DNA of 64,000 nt. Origin: Trypanosoma brucei. Lineage: Eukaryota. The DNA is taken from positions 4,768,001-4,832,000 of the forward strand of contig CH464491.1 of the NCBI GenBank assembly GCA_000002445.1, written 5' to 3'. Made by a program: the position numbers. Position 1 is the first letter of the stretch, and each line of letters begins with the position of its first letter. Of this stretch, positions 12,401 to 18,400 are shown piece after piece.

Positions 12401-15400
12401 TAAATTAACAAAATTAGAATATCATTCATTTTCCACATCACCGGACAGCAGCATCTTAGTGCGGATGATACTGCTGATGGTACGCTGGCACGTGCCCAGG
12501 GACAGACAAATGAAAAACGGTGTCCCAGCAAGACGCTGCTGATCCCTGTGCTGTATGATGCCGTGGCGGAAGCAAAGCAGTGTTCCCCATGAAAGGAATA
12601 CTGCTGGCTCTTGACTTCCCCCGATGATACGGGGTACTGGACCCTGGCACCACGTTAAGGTGGCCGCCATCGCCAGGGCGTTCATTTTTCATAACTCGTC
12701 ACCATACCACTTTACTCCCATAGGTCACTATTATACAAAACTTTCAAAATTTAAACTAATTTTTACATTTTTATTGAAACCGCTAAAATTTCACAAATAT
12801 GTCTATTGTCTAAAAATAGAAAATTTTATAAAAATGAGCAACAATGTTTTAAAATCTTAATTATAGAATCAAAAATGCAAGCAAAAGAGGGGACTTTTTA
12901 ATGACAAAAGAATTGCTTCCTGTGGTGTTTGTGGTTCCGGTTTTGCTATCTTTCTCTCCTCCCTCTACTTGCTGTGTTTTGTAATCCGGATTCTTTACGC
13001 ACTTCTTTTTGTCACCTTCATCTTCAACAACTTTGCATCCTTCTTTGCAGTTATCCCCTGGTCCTTTTTTTTCGCACGTTGCGTCTGTTTCGTCTACCTT
13101 CGGAACCTCTGGTGGTGTTACCGCTGTGGCGGCCTGGTCTGGTGGTTTTATTCTTGTAGCTTCGTATGCAGTTTGCACCGCCAGCTGCAAGCCTTTCATT
13201 TGCGTTTCGTATCCTTGTAGAACGGCGTTCGCCCTCGCTGCTTTTTCCAGCTCCTGCGCGGCTGCTTGTAGTTTCCGTTACCACGTTATACCTGTTCCGC
13301 CGCCGTGTAATTGGACTTTGTAGTTTATGCATTTTTGGTCACTTGCCCCATCGCAGCCGCCCCCTCTGTATTTACCAAGGATGTAGCGGACTTCGTCCCC
13401 AGTTTGGCTGGCCGGTTGGGCACCTAGTTTGCTTCTGAATTTCTCGATTTGAGCGTTGATCAGCGCTGCCGTCAAGACTGGCTGGTGTGCAGGTTTGCCG
13501 CATGCAGTTATCAGCTTGGTGACGGCTTTGTCAGCCGTGTTGGTGCCGCCGTCGTCTACCTGCGCTTGAGCCGTGCTTGTGCACTCCGTGGACGTCGCTC
13601 CGTCTTTGTTAGTGCAAAGGCAGATCATATCGTTCATTATCGCCTTGCCTACTGCCGCATTTCCGGCTGTGCCATCACCGCGTGTGCTCGCGTCGCGCGT
13701 GTTGATCCGAATATTGCTTTATCGAAAGTAGTCGAGTCGGTTCCGTGTATGGCGAGTCGGATGTGCTTCAGCGCGTTTTCGTGTGCTTTCTTTACTGTCT
13801 CCGCTGCTTCGTTGTATTTGGATCTCAGCCGGTCCGCTGTTGCTATGGCGGTTCTTATGGTTGCCGACGCTTGACGTTTACTGTGTCCGTTAACCAGTTG
13901 TGCGTATATTTCCGAGCCGTCTGGCTGCTCTTTGTGTGTCAGTATCCCCTGGACATGTTGCGTCCAAGCCTTTTGCTTTGCTGCGTCGTCAGCCCCCTCC
14001 TTTAGTTCCTTGTACTTTCCGTTGGCATCCTTTACGAAGCCGTCGTCCGCCGTTGAGATGTTAAGGTTATAGATCGGCGACCTGAGAGACTCGAAGTCTG
14101 CCGGTTCGTCGCTGAATGCCGATGCTTTCGTCGCATGTAAGAGGTTATATAAATCTCAAAGCGCTGAAAATTCGGAGGCGTGTTGGTTTGCTCCACTTTG
14201 GGCTGTTTGCGATAACGTATATAGGGCAACAGTTAATTGTATCAGCATTGTTAATCTATTGCCTTAGGAAAGAGTTACATATGGAAGACGCGCGGATGAT
14301 TATTTTCTTTTTGCTGTTAATGCTGGTCCGGTCAAAAATTTCCCATGAAGTTTGACTTAGTGGTGTTTCACATGGTGTAATTGTGATGGTGACGTCGGAT
14401 TATGACTTTAGTTATGCTTAGGGCGTCAGCTATGTCTTTTTACGTTACTTTCTGTTAAAAGTAAAAGGTGGGTGCGGCTGCACCAGCGGAGTATGTAGAG
14501 GCTTCAGAGATTGCTATACCTTGCTAGCCTTTTTAGCTTGCTTGCTATTATCAGTTTCGGAAAAGCGGTCGAGTAAGAAACAGAGATCCAGCGCTACGTT
14601 ATACACAACACTTTTGTGGTGAAATAATTAATCCTCAACCTCTCAACAATAAATATGTTTACATAACAGATGAGATTCTCCGCCATTTTAATTGTTTTCT
14701 TATCCCACGCAATAGGCTGCCCAGGAAAATGGATGAATGGCGCTTCTCCAATCACACCACTACTGGGAATAGAAAAGAATCTCTCCTCATATTCCAATCC
14801 AACCATTCCTCTCATTAAAACAAAACTCTCTCCAACAGCTTCTTCCTGAATTGCACTCCATATTAACAACGGTTTGTAAATACTCTGCTCTGACCACTAT
14901 TCCTCACTTCCTTTAAGTGACTCTACAAATGCGTTTTCAAATTTCTTAAATGCCCAAACTCTTGCTATCAAGCCACCACCACTAAGATAGGGTTTTCCGC
15001 TAGAAGGTATTTTAGTAAATGCGGTAGCTTCTTATTCTATTCCTTTCTGCACTTAACATAAAAAAATAACGTCTCTCCACGTGCTCTTTGTGAAGATCCT
15101 CTTCACTGATATTATCTTTATTATCAGGGTATTTTGTATAAAATATTATACTGTTTTTTCATACTTATTTCCATCACTAACTATAACATCAGATCCATCC
15201 AAATGAATTGCAGTATCCTCATCACTTGAATTCTGTCCTTATAAAAATTCCATAACCCATCTAAGCCTAACATAGCTCTACAAACTTCCCATTGTAATTG
15301 TAATAATTTCAACATGGCTCAGTTTGGCACTCAAAATAAGTCTACACCATTGTTGGGTTGCATGAGTTTGAATTATAGCCACAAAGACTCCTGGTTTCTT

Positions 15401-18400
15401 AGGTTAATTCTCTGTCATATTTGTTATGTCACTTACTTCTTCATCTTGAAGGAATACGGCACTCACACACACTAAATGTAATGGGAACGGCAATAGTAAA
15501 GTTTCTAAGATACAAAATTTCATTCCCTTAATTTACTTAAAATTTTTAAGAAGTTTAAAATAAAATCATAGCAAACAAAAGAAAAAAGTCTAATGAGTCA
15601 CTAATGTGTTTACATAAGCAATCCATTGACAGTTTTATGATTCTGTTGTTGAATATATATGCTACGTGTTGTTATTTTTTTTTGAGCACTCATCTACCGC
15701 TTGAGTAATCATATTCAGTCTCATATAGTACTGATACACACTAAACGCATACCAGTGCGTTTTGTACTCTTCACATATTTCCTCTGTGCATAGTTATGGG
15801 AATGGAAGTAGTTGCTTGCACTGATTAGTTCAGATATACTAGAAATTTTACCAGTTGCGTGCGCTAGCTATTCCAATTACACGCTTTCCATCATAGGACT
15901 CCCATCAGCGTGACGTTTAGAACTGCTTCTACTACTACTGCTCGCATCGTCTCTACCGCCGCGTCTATCCATTATATAATGAATTGTAGAGTCCAATATT
16001 CTCCTGTTAATGCTAATATATCACCATTTTACGTGTTATTCAGGGTGTGGCGCGGAGACTTTATATTGTCTCTACACAAGAATATCTCTCTTTCTCACTG
16101 TACCTTTATTATTTCCTTGTTTATAAGGTTTTCCATCATTATATTTATTTTTTGAAAACGTGTATGTTCTATATCTCTCAATTCATTTCTACACATCTCC
16201 AGTTGTCTCGTTTAACAGTTTCCCTTATGCTTTTTACTAACATACTCCCATTGAAACCATTTCATTTGGTCTTAACCACAAGTATTATTATAATATTCGT
16301 ATACACACTCTCACAACGCTCTCCTATCATTATCATCATTACTGCTCTTATTAAAATATTAGTATATACTCACACTCATAACACTTTCCTATTATTATTG
16401 TTGTTATAACCCTAACTAATTTTCGTAAACAAAAAATAAACAAAATTAGTAAAAGTTTCATAATAACACTCACTTTTATAACCTTGCGGCGAAATGGTAC
16501 GGGCTTACGTTTTTTCTCAGATTGATAACCTTTACCCCCTCTTTTATGATTCATTTAAGTCACCTGCAAGAGAGCATAAGTGTTGAGAGTATGTTTTTTT
16601 TTGTGAAATATCAAATTTACTTATTTTAATGCTTTCATCCTTCACGGGGGTAGAATGGTTGACCAGTGTCAAAACTTTTATAGAGTTTCCTCAACAAAAA
16701 GAGCGAACCTAGTTTTATTTTGATTTTCGACACGCTAGAACCCCAACGTAATATACAATGTGGATGGCTTTGTGATAATCGAAAATAGAAATATCATGGT
16801 TTATTTGAACCAAGAACGGAAAATGGATCTGGGATCGCTAAGACAATTGATGGTAAGCTCTACATAACCCCGAAACTCAGATTTTTTAAAGGCTATTTTG
16901 AAGAGGCGAGAGGAGCACTACGTGCAGAATGGGCGACATTAGAAGCTACAGAATCAGCACTTTATTATCAGTTTGAAAGTGCATGTGCACAACCCACCGA
17001 CGAAAATTTTCGAGTGTAACATGAATCAAATGAACAGCTGAGCGGGATGCAAAAGCAACTAAAACATATGGAATAATTAAATGCATAACGAGTAGCGTAC
17101 ATTGAGGTCCAGGCCTAAAAAATTGCTACGCTGCGGCAAAAATTGGTTATAACTGAATGTAAGAGAGATGACACAGGGAAGTGTCAGAAACAACAGAGCA
17201 AATCGGACACGTGGAAGGCCAAACATATAGATGAATGCGCATGGAAAGGTTGTTTCCCGCCGAAAGAAGTAACTTAACCTTTGTCACATAGGGTTTGACT
17301 TCGAGGGATCCAGGAGTTACGGGAAAGCGCATGGGGTATGCCTGGAGGAGTAAGCACTAAAGAAAAAATTCGGACCTTTGAGGGAGTGATGAAATATCTC
17401 CAGGGAAGAACGCCTGAACAATTGTTATCGGCGTATCAGTTCGTGTTTCCACCACCAACAACGTCACCGGGACAAGTATATACCGAGGCATGAAAAACTT
17501 CGCATCATGGGCATTGCGCCTGCACCAAGACGGCATATCGGAGGAACGCCCCCAACTAGGAAAACAATTGTATGATAAGGTGTGCACAGTACAAACGGTA
17601 AAAGACTACCCGGGGCTGAGGTTTAAAGACATGAAGGAAGCTATAGGATTCCCTATCAAAAGGGATGACATGTTCCTTCCGGCCTCTATGAAAGAGAAAC
17701 GACAACAACAACAACAAATCGGTGTCCCTCCGAGAAGGTCTCAATGTTTCACATGCGGACAATTGGGGCATTACAGCAATACTTGTGGGGTGTTCAAACA
17801 TAAACTAAACACACGTCAAAAAAGCGACATTCAGTTCAAGAAGCAATGAATTTGGGGTCCTTTAATATTTCCCTACCTGTATTCCATCACAAGGGAAAAA
17901 CCAACACAACGGAGAAAGTCATACACTGGAGGACGATAACAATTACCACTCCTCGTCGAAAAATGAGTTACCCGACACGGACGGGGACAGTAAGACTCTT
18001 ACGCGCAGAAAAGTCGACAGCAGCTCAACGTATGAGAGGAGCCTTTCAAGGGAGCTTGGAAATGCCAAATTGAAATTAAAAACATGCCACAAAGAGGGTT
18101 TCGGTAAACGAAGTCACGGTTATTCTAGCTTATACACACAATCCGCATGTTGTGACACTGGTGTCAGAAGCAAACAAAAAGTAGCAAAAAGGATGTGAAC
18201 ACGCACAACATGAGAACAGAAAGGGTCCATAATCCGAAAGTTCTATGTGTTTACATACAAACACGGATTACCGGCGGTCGAAAAGACAGTCCCCCTTTTT
18301 ATCGTAAGTTTGAAACTGGAAAAAAGCAGCGCAACACAGTACATAAGGACACTACTATCATTACTAGCCGCAGAGCATACACCTGCGTGAATGTTGTTTT

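What the first reader, a model, noticed from the sequence alone, without database searches (positions are those of the whole stretch)
14594..15500. Unidentified gene fragment duplicated in two VSG upstream regions (14.6 kb and 61.0 kb)
Two minus-strand fragments encode about 65 aligned residues that are clearly homologous (…EQSIY[KR]PLL…GLEYEERFFSIPSSGVIGEAPFIHF[PT][GR]QPIAW…). Both lie between a VSG and its 70-bp repeat. These two intervals are the longest in the array (about 2.0-2.1 kb versus 0.8-1.5 kb). I could not assign the protein to ESAG, RHS or glycosyltransferase families from memory. It may be a co-transposed gene remnant that travels with certain VSG cassettes.
Basis: seen in the sequence. 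Interest (0 to 1): 0.5.

Follow-up and report, generated by a model that had tools for sequence, protein, structure and literature searches.

The report
Two decayed ESAG3 pseudogenes upstream of VSGs
The "unidentified" fragment is two broken copies of ESAG3, a well-known Trypanosoma brucei expression-site gene recently reported to add glucose to VSG coat proteins; finding dead copies between a 70-bp repeat and a silent VSG is already documented and ordinary.

Summary
Window 14696-14890(-) and 61060-61254(-) align without gaps over 65 codons, at 72% nucleotide and 66% amino-acid identity. This is true coding homology, not repeat or low-complexity sequence.

A profile of the two copies, searched against 1.84 billion proteins, hits the 368-aa T. 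brucei ESAG3 (E 7e-39).
- Copy A (15523-14663, -) covers ESAG3 residues 1-319. It has 6 in-frame stops, 3 frameshifts and about 34 codons deleted.
- Copy B (61254-60909, -) covers residues 244-359. It has 2 frameshifts and is cut at its 5' end beside an ingi-related retroposon fragment.

The shared block is simply the overlap of two independently truncated pseudogenes.

Both lie between a 70-bp repeat and a class-B VSG pseudogene. The same order (70-bp repeat, ESAG3 pseudogene, VSG) occurs in a T. b. gambiense locus I fetched. Hertz-Fowler et al. 2008 list an "ESAG3 pseudogene 3' of 70-bp repeat" for expression site BES7 and name ESAG3 or VSG pseudogenes as the extra sequence in BES15.

This is already known, and of low interest.

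The parts
14663..15523 (-). ESAG3 pseudogene, copy A. It covers ESAG3 residues 1-319, including the signal-peptide-like N-terminus. It has 6 in-frame stops, 3 frameshifts and about 34 codons deleted (around residues 135-185), and it lacks the last ~45 residues.
   Evidence: tblastn of P0001 (ESAG3) gives E 8e-107. The frameshift-aware alignment gives 209/285 identical residues. The family HMM gives two domains, E 9e-43 and 2e-54.
14696..14890 (-). It includes the E244/Q245 pair and H297 of the GT-A active site.
   Evidence: Residue roles are from preprint 10.64898/2026.01.27.701950.
60909..61254 (-). ESAG3 pseudogene, copy B. It covers ESAG3 residues 244-359 with 2 frameshifts and is truncated at its 5' end.
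   Evidence: tblastn of P0001 gives E 2e-30. The frameshift-aware alignment gives 68/114 identical residues. The family HMM gives E 1e-29.
61330..61830 (+). GC-rich fragment (0.51-0.57 GC) on the opposite strand, abutting the 5' break of copy B. It shares the 28-nt core CTCAACGTGGCGCCAGGGTCCAGTACC with the two ingi/RIME-like 5' ends elsewhere in the window. It is probably a degenerate ingi-related (DIRE-like) retroposon 5' end. Its boundaries are approximate.
   Evidence: The family assignment rests on my own knowledge of the ingi/RIME 5' signature and was not tested against a reference.
16264..16446 (-). 70-bp repeat of the cassette that holds copy A.
   Evidence: blastn matches to the other 70-bp sites and core-motif hits at 16302 and 16367.
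62618..62701 (-). 70-bp repeat of the cassette that holds copy B.
12861..14248 (-). Class-B VSG pseudogene downstream of copy A, interrupted by stops.
   Evidence: Pfam VSG_B E 9e-23 on ORF 13278-13637; ORF list.
58948..60498 (-). Class-B VSG pseudogene downstream of copy B, split into two ORFs.
   Evidence: Pfam VSG_B E 1.6e-35 on 59683-60570, and VSG C-terminal domain E 3e-15 on 58948-59613.

Best explanation
Both fragments are dead copies of ESAG3. This is the T. brucei expression-site-associated gene that a 2026 preprint reports to encode a Mn2+-dependent, UDP-glucose-specific GT-A O-glucosyltransferase acting on class-B VSGs. The copies sit in the 5' flank of two silent array VSG pseudogenes, downstream of each cassette's 70-bp repeat. 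Shown: the homology to ESAG3; the stops, frameshifts and truncations; the position; and the fact that the two copies diverged mostly under purifying selection. The last point means they descend from two different ESAG3 lineages that were once functional, not from a recent duplication of a fragment. Inferred: they now make no enzyme and decay neutrally. Because the 70-bp repeat is the usual upstream limit of VSG gene conversion, anything between it and the VSG, including an ESAG3 relic, is copied passively with the VSG. That would explain why the same arrangement recurs in arrays and in some bloodstream expression sites. The longer 70-bp-to-VSG interval in these two cassettes is due to this extra sequence, plus a retroposon fragment in cassette B.
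For: The profile of the two copies hits ESAG3 (P0001, 368 aa) at E 6.8e-39. It also hits ESAG3-like proteins of T. brucei and T. cruzi, and the source names confirm ESAG3. tblastn of ESAG3 on the window gives E 8e-107 for copy A and 2e-30 for copy B. The frameshift-aware alignment locates 6 stops and 3 frameshifts in A and 2 frameshifts in B. Over the shared block both copies are closest to expression-site-type ESAG3 (78-80% and 66-67%), not to chromosome-internal ESAG3-like genes (about 30%). The codon-position bias is 14/8/32 and dN/dS is 0.12. The context is a VSG array: VSG_B and ESAG1 Pfam hits and six 70-bp sites. An independent example is T. b. gambiense locus L001, with 70-bp repeats at 8390-8680, an ESAG3 pseudogene at 9501-10552, and a VSG pseudogene from 10797 that is 80% identical to VSG 1125.2815. 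Literature: BES7 is listed with an 'ESAG3 pseudogene 3' of 70-bp repeat' and BES15 with ESAG3 or VSG pseudogenes in that position (PMC2567434). ESAG pseudogenes are described as prevalent in subtelomeric VSG arrays (PMC4766357; PMC3871602). ESAG3 enzymology and active-site residues are from 10.64898/2026.01.27.701950.
Against: Nothing contradicts the identification. The passive co-transposition step is inferred, not observed. No switching or long-read data were available, and I could not tally how many cassettes genome-wide carry an ESAG3 relic. The spacers between the ESAG3 pseudogene and the VSG share no detectable DNA similarity among copy A, copy B and L001. A single ancestral ESAG3-VSG unit is therefore not demonstrated, and independent insertions remain possible.
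Confidence: 0.88

Rival explanations
1. The ESAG3 relics are kept because they serve as homology anchors for recombination. They would pair with ESAG3 copies in expression sites, or with each other, and guide segmental exchange or VSG conversion, either as an alternative to the 70-bp repeats or in addition to them.
For: Hertz-Fowler et al. note that frequent recombination breakpoints in expression sites coincide with ESAG3 loci, and suggest ESAG3 could orient sites before exchange (PMC2567434). The arrangement recurs in the window, in T. b. gambiense and in BES7/BES15.
Against: The two copies are only 72% identical to each other over 195 nt, and each is truncated differently. That is poor substrate for homologous recombination. 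Only 2 of 6 cassettes in the window have one. Pairing with expression-site ESAG3, which lies upstream of ESAG2/11/1 and the 70-bp repeats (PMC2567434), would delete those genes. There is no sign of sequence maintenance: stops, frameshifts and deletions have accumulated.
Confidence: 0.1
2. The shared block is a conserved non-coding element of the VSG 5' flank (co-transposed region), for example an RNA-processing or regulatory signal, and its resemblance to a protein is incidental.
For: Both copies sit at a similar distance (about 0.35-0.75 kb) upstream of the VSG start codon.
Against: Third-codon-position bias and dN/dS of 0.12 occur in one frame only. The match to ESAG3 extends far beyond the shared block: residues 1-319 in A and 244-359 in B. 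The other four cassettes have no copy. There is no Rfam match.
Confidence: 0.01
3. One or both copies still make a functional, perhaps shortened, ESAG3-like protein.
For: Copy A keeps the start codon, the signal-peptide-like N-terminus, the DxxD motif (LDGSD), the GGG loop, W242, E244/Q245 and H297.
Against: Copy A has six in-frame stops, three frameshifts, loss of about 34 residues including the conserved CYAPQ segment, and loss of the C-terminus. Copy B lacks residues 1-243, including the metal-binding DxxD motif, and has two frameshifts. The longest open frames are 91 and 72 aa.
Confidence: 0.01

Closest known systems
ESAG3 of T. brucei bloodstream expression sites (e.g. UniProt Q26748, B3GVE4; 368 aa), reported to be a retaining GT-A O-glucosyltransferase for class-B VSGs
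   Same: There is clear sequence homology. Copy A is 73% identical over 285 aligned residues spanning ESAG3 residues 1-319. Copy B is 60% identical over residues 244-359. The active-site residues that fall within the preserved parts are retained: D110/D113, G215-G216, W242, E244/Q245 and H297 in A; E244/Q245 and H297 in B.
   Different: The window copies are pseudogenes with stops, frameshifts and truncations. They lie in a silent VSG array downstream of a 70-bp repeat, not in the canonical expression-site positions upstream of the 70-bp repeats. They are more diverged than expression-site copies are from one another: the listed expression-site ESAG3 sequences fall in one 90%-identity cluster.
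ESAG3 pseudogenes located 3' of the 70-bp repeats in Lister 427 expression sites BES7 (VSG 427-3) and BES15 (VSG 427-11), Hertz-Fowler et al. 2008, PMC2567434
   Same: Same gene family, same pseudogene status and same position between the 70-bp repeat and the VSG.
   Different: Those are telomeric expression sites, whereas the window is an internal array of silent cassettes. I could not compare sequences because no BES DNA was available.
ESAG3 pseudogene in a T. b. gambiense DAL972 VSG cassette (FN554968.1, locus L001; annotated 'hypothetical protein, unlikely', C9ZQ13)
   Same: The order is the same: 70-bp repeat, about 0.8 kb, ESAG3 pseudogene, about 0.25 kb, VSG pseudogene, next 70-bp repeat.
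   Different: It is nearly full length (residues 1-354, one frameshift). It belongs to a different sub-lineage, 50% (copy A) and 49% (copy B) identical to the window copies over the shared block. Its VSG gives no VSG_B Pfam hit.
Chromosome-internal ESAG3-like (GRESAG3) genes of T. brucei (Q38A26, Q38CS1) and the 'ESAG-like' proteins of T. cruzi
   Same: Same superfamily. They are detected by the same profile at E about 4e-5.
   Different: They are only about 30% identical over the shared block, are intact genes, and are not linked to VSG cassettes.
Glycosyltransferase domain of human LH3/PLOD3 (PDB 6FXR, 6WFV)
   Same: It is the nearest solved fold to ESAG3 according to the preprint. Weak sequence signals were seen here too: Pfam GT_PLOD E 0.005 and PDB 6wfv E 0.029.
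   Different: The relationship is only distant, at fold level, and it concerns the parent gene rather than the pseudogenes.

Membership tests
ESAG3 (gene family) | Significant sequence homology to ESAG3 along the protein | tested here: met
   Profile search E 6.8e-39. tblastn E 8e-107 for copy A and 2e-30 for copy B. Family-HMM domains at E 9e-43, 2e-54 and 1e-29.
ESAG3 (gene family) | Closer to ESAG3 proper than to chromosome-internal ESAG3-like paralogues | tested here: met
   Over the shared 76 residues, A is 78-80% and B 66-67% identical to expression-site ESAG3. Both are about 30% identical to P0004/P0006/P0005.
ESAG3 (functional enzyme) | Uninterrupted reading frame of about 368 codons | tested here: not met
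   Copy A has 6 stops, 3 frameshifts, about 34 codons deleted and no C-terminus. Copy B has only residues 244-359 with 2 frameshifts.
ESAG3 (functional enzyme) | GT-A active-site residues present (DxxD D110/D113, G215-G216, W242, E244/Q245, H297; preprint 10.64898/2026.01.27.701950) | tested here: inconclusive
   All are still encoded in copy A, although W241 is a stop. Copy B keeps only E244/Q245 and H297, because the rest of the gene is missing. Their retention in a broken frame says nothing about activity.
ESAG3 (expression-site gene) | [quoted passage not shown] | tested here: not met
   The window carries six 70-bp sites with successive VSG pseudogenes, which is typical of a silent array. 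Transcription cannot be tested with these tools.
VSG cassette flank ('co-transposed' sequence) | Lies between the 70-bp repeat and the VSG start codon of the same cassette, on the same strand | tested here: met
   Cassette A: 70-bp repeat 16264-16446, pseudogene 15523-14663, VSG ATG 14248. Cassette B: 70-bp repeat 62618-62701, pseudogene 61254-60909, VSG ATG 60498.
VSG cassette flank ('co-transposed' sequence) | Actually copied together with the VSG during gene conversion | not testable with these tools
   This needs sequences of switch products. The only indirect support is ESAG3 pseudogenes 3' of the 70-bp repeats in BES7 and BES15 (PMC2567434).

The most novel reading that the evidence does not exclude
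The ESAG3 relics next to VSGs may be traces of an ancestral enzyme-plus-substrate unit. In that unit the O-glucosyltransferase gene sat directly upstream of a class-B VSG and was copied with it, so some cassettes once delivered, or elsewhere in the genome still deliver, a matched ESAG3 variant together with the VSG it glucosylates. Hints in favour: both window relics precede class-B VSGs with cysteine-flanked Ser-rich loops (NCGGSSASGLCVKY and GGGCDGASDQKC, compared with the VSG3 acceptor loop CTGSASEGLC). The two Lister 427 expression sites with an ESAG3 pseudogene 3' of the 70-bp repeat carry VSG3 and VSG11, both reported to be O-glycosylated. Against: about half of all VSGs are class B. Class-B cassettes in the window at about 7.7 kb and 50.8 kb have no relic. 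The T. b. gambiense example precedes a VSG that gives no VSG_B hit.
Probability: 0.05. Interest if true: 0.5.

Novelty: already known. Interest (0 to 1): 0.1.

Why it matters
It matters little beyond correct annotation. The fragment should be labelled as an ESAG3 pseudogene, twice, rather than as an unknown gene. It gives a tidy example of how two independently truncated relics can look like one short "duplicated fragment". ESAG3 has just been reported as the VSG O-glucosyltransferase. A genome-wide census of ESAG3 relics inside VSG cassettes, recording position, VSG class and lineage, would therefore be cheap. It could show whether enzyme and substrate genes were ever physically coupled. This window alone does not support that.

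Tried and rejected
- Pfam scan of the two fragment translations gave no family even at E 10. ESAG3 has no Pfam model; the full-length protein gives only a weak GT_PLOD hit.
- The word-indexed protein search with the 141-aa translation of copy A returned nothing, although ESAG3 shares 20-residue identical stretches with it. This is a blind spot of that tool. The exhaustive HMMER search solved it.
- Exact-sequence look-ups of the 91-aa ORF and of the window's ESAG1 ORF found no record, so the source strain was not identified.
- Rfam had no match in the window.
- Tandem-repeat and low-complexity explanations are rejected.
- I looked for the missing 5' part of copy B beyond the retroposon fragment (61830-62600) and for the missing 3' end of copy A (14250-14660). 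Neither tblastn nor the family HMM finds them. Copy B is therefore not a simple retroposon insertion into an intact gene.
- I looked for DNA similarity of the non-ESAG3 parts of the two flanks to each other and to the T. b. gambiense locus. Only 70-bp-repeat matches appeared.
- Search for the conserved VSG 3'-UTR 16-mer was uninformative for these pseudogenes.
- Pfam and PDB searches did not type the VSG of locus L001. The word-indexed protein search showed it is a VSG.
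Full report

Yes. A blastn of window 14000-16500 against the whole window finds one non-trivial match outside the 70-bp repeats. This is 14704-14890 against 61068-61254, at 73% identity over 187 nt, E 1e-26.

An ungapped comparison of 195 nt (14696-14890 vs 61060-61254) gives:
- 141 identical nucleotides and 43 of 65 identical residues, with no stop in either copy;
- differences falling 14, 8 and 32 at codon positions 1, 2 and 3.

The other five frames give 0.27-5.4, and all contain stops. Equal thirds would give 18/18/18, so chi-square is 17.3 and p is about 2e-4 (my arithmetic).

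Tandem Repeats Finder reports nothing there. The similarity is therefore that of two sequences that diverged as working protein-coding genes. It is not repeat-derived or low-complexity.

**2. What is it?**

Pfam finds nothing in the fragments, and the word-indexed protein search also returned nothing. A profile of the two aligned copies (A1), scored with HMMER against 1.84 billion representative proteins, found six proteins:
- a 368-aa protein at E 6.8e-39;
- two short ones at 5e-25 and 4e-22;
- three proteins of 272-395 aa at about 4e-5.

The cluster look-up names them. The 368-aa cluster is "Expression site-associated gene 3 (ESAG3) protein" of T. b. brucei and T. b. gambiense. The weaker hits are "ESAG3-like" chromosome-internal genes of T. 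brucei and "ESAG-like" proteins of T. cruzi.

tblastn of ESAG3 back on the window gives E 8e-107 for 15523-14663 (ESAG3 residues 1-319) and E 2e-30 for 61257-60949 (residues 243-345). A family HMM scanned over all six frames finds these two places and nothing else.

**3. Anatomy**

I made a frameshift-aware protein-to-DNA alignment.

Copy A:
- It starts at the ESAG3 start codon (15523; MKFCILETLLLPFPLHLVCV...) and runs to residue 319 (14663).
- 209 of 285 aligned residues are identical.
- In-frame stops lie at about 15404, 15278, 15239, 15146, 15037 and 14897.
- Three frameshifts lie at about 15126, 15058 and 15008.
- About 34 codons are missing between residues 135 and 185.
- The last ~45 residues cannot be found downstream.

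Copy B:
- It begins at residue 244 (61254) and runs to residue 359 (60909).
- It has two frameshifts, and 68 of 114 residues are identical.
- Its upstream break is followed within about 70 nt by a GC-rich segment (61330-61830, 0.51-0.57 GC) on the opposite strand.
- That segment shares the 28-nt core CTCAACGTGGCGCCAGGGTCCAGTACC with two ~260-nt elements at about 47.8 kb (+) and 12.4-12.7 kb (-). From my own knowledge those two carry the ingi/RIME 5' signature. I take the segment to be a degenerate ingi-related retroposon end, untested against a reference.
- No ESAG3 sequence resumes beyond it, so the break is a rearrangement rather than a clean insertion.

With dS about 1.7, the two are old, separate lineages and not a recent duplicate. 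Over the overlap both are nearest to expression-site ESAG3 (78-80% and 66-67%). Both are far from the internal ESAG3-like genes (about 30%).

**4. Context**

The window is a T. brucei-type silent VSG array:
- Pfam VSG_B and VSG C-terminal domains occur on several minus-strand ORFs.
- An ESAG1 ORF lies at 45472-46476.
- Six 70-bp-repeat sites are present in minus orientation.

Cassette A reads: 70-bp repeat 16264-16446, ESAG3 pseudogene 15523-14663, VSG_B pseudogene from ATG 14248. Cassette B reads: 70-bp repeat 62618-62701, retroposon fragment, ESAG3 pseudogene 61254-60909, VSG_B pseudogene from ATG 60498.

The 70-bp-to-ATG distances are about 2.0 and 2.1 kb here. For the other cassettes that could be measured they are about 1.45 and 1.53 kb. 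A further one is roughly 1.1 kb if the TTG-start ORF 56542-57456 is a VSG, which Pfam did not confirm.

**5. Does it recur elsewhere?**

The 187-aa hit P0003 ("hypothetical protein, unlikely", T. b. gambiense DAL972) could be placed on its chromosome. In that locus (L001):
- 70-bp repeats lie at about 8390-8680;
- an ESAG3 pseudogene covers 9501-10552 (residues 1-354, one frameshift);
- a gene with a signal peptide starts at 10797;
- the next 70-bp repeat is at 12574.

A later ORF of that gene is 80% identical to "Variant surface glycoprotein 1125.2815". So the order 70-bp repeat, ESAG3 pseudogene, VSG recurs in another subspecies.

A 980-nt Logan contig (L002) likewise has the ESAG3 3' end followed by another ORF, which I did not identify.

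In the literature, Hertz-Fowler et al. 2008 list "ESAG3 pseudogene 3' of 70-bp repeat" for BES7. They state that BESs 2, 4, 7 and 15 carry additional sequence (an ingi element, or a VSG or ESAG3 pseudogene) between the 70-bp array and the telomere (PMC2567434). Other papers state that ESAG pseudogenes are prevalent in subtelomeric VSG arrays (PMC4766357) and that non-telomeric ESAG3 copies exist as pseudogenes there (PMC3871602).

**6. What the parent gene does**

A bioRxiv preprint (10.64898/2026.01.27.701950) reports the following:
- ESAG3 is a Mn2+-dependent, UDP-glucose-specific, retaining GT-A O-glucosyltransferase.
- It is required for O-glucosylation of VSG3 and forms an 18-mer ring.
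- Its active-site residues are D110/D113, G215-G216, W242, E244/Q245 and H297.
- LH3/PLOD3 is its nearest solved fold.

Consistent with that, I see weak hits of ESAG3 to Pfam GT_PLOD (E 0.005) and to PDB LH3 chains (E 0.029).

Copy A still encodes all the listed residues, but in a broken frame. Copy B lacks the metal-binding half of the enzyme.

**7. How it most likely works**

Shown:
- Both loci are ESAG3 pseudogenes that cannot encode the enzyme.
- They lie inside the cassette, downstream of the 70-bp repeat.
- They diverged under constraint before dying.

Inferred:
- They are neutral relics.
- The 70-bp repeat usually marks the upstream end of VSG gene conversion (established knowledge of VSG switching). 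A relic in this position would therefore be copied with the VSG, which would account for ESAG3 pseudogenes 3' of the 70-bp repeats in BES7 and BES15.

A recombination-anchor role (Hertz-Fowler's suggestion for expression-site ESAG3) is possible but poorly supported here. The copies are 72% identical over under 200 nt and are visibly decaying.

**8. The most novel reading not excluded**

This would be an ancestral linkage of the glucosyltransferase gene with its class-B VSG substrate.

In favour:
- Both window relics precede class-B VSGs with Cys-flanked Ser-rich loops.
- BES7 and BES15 carry VSG3 and VSG11, both reported to be O-glycosylated.

Against:
- Class B is about half of all VSGs.
- Two other class-B cassettes in the window lack a relic.
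- The T. b. gambiense example precedes a VSG with no VSG_B hit.

I put this at about 5%.

**9. Verdict**

It is wrong on identity, because the gene is ESAG3, and on history, because there are two old, independently truncated copies. The feature is already known and ordinary for T. brucei subtelomeres. Interest is low.

Noticed in passing
window 17490-20680 (+): A degenerate retroelement-like stretch. ORF 17490-17849 carries a CCHC zinc knuckle (Pfam PF00098, E 2e-4). ORF 20108-20680 has an RNase-H-like 'TDASVQGWGG' motif, and its only relative is an uncharacterized T. brucei 927 protein. It may be a VIPER/DIRS-like remnant; that is from my own knowledge and untested.
   Followed up: partly
window ~47830-48100 (+) and ~12400-12680 (-): Two ~260-nt GC-rich elements nearly identical to each other. 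They carry what I recognise as the ingi/RIME 5' signature (CCCTGGCG...CCAGGGTCCAGTACCCCGTATCATCGGGGGAAGCCAAGAGCC). One lies just downstream of the VSG of cassette A.
   Followed up: partly
window 45472-46476 (+): An open 334-aa ESAG1 ORF (Pfam ESAG1, E 3.8e-113) on the opposite strand to most VSGs of the window. The exact protein is not on record in the assembly index.
   Followed up: partly
window 58948-59613 (-) and 13278-13637 (-): The class-B VSG pseudogenes downstream of the two ESAG3 relics carry cysteine-flanked Ser-rich loops (NCGGSSASGLCVKY; GGGCDGASDQKC). These resemble the VSG3 O-glucosylation loop CTGSASEGLC described in preprint 10.64898/2026.01.27.701950.
   Followed up: partly
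L001 9501-10552 (T. b. gambiense DAL972, FN554968.1): A nearly full-length ESAG3 pseudogene with one frameshift. In the public record it is annotated only as 'hypothetical protein, unlikely' (C9ZQ13). It lies between a 70-bp repeat and a VSG pseudogene.
   Followed up: yes
window 3333-4532 (-), 9779-10555 (-), 26798-27763 (-), 52700-53563 (+), 56542-57456 (-): Long ORFs of 258-399 aa with no Pfam family at E <= 0.01. Some may be class-A VSG N-terminal domains or chance frames. 26798-27763 is Ser/Gly-rich and low-complexity.
   Followed up: no
tool behaviour: The word-indexed protein search missed ESAG3, although copy A shares identical stretches of more than 20 residues with it. The exhaustive HMMER search found it at once. 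Negative results from the indexed search on trypanosome sequences should not be trusted.
   Followed up: yes
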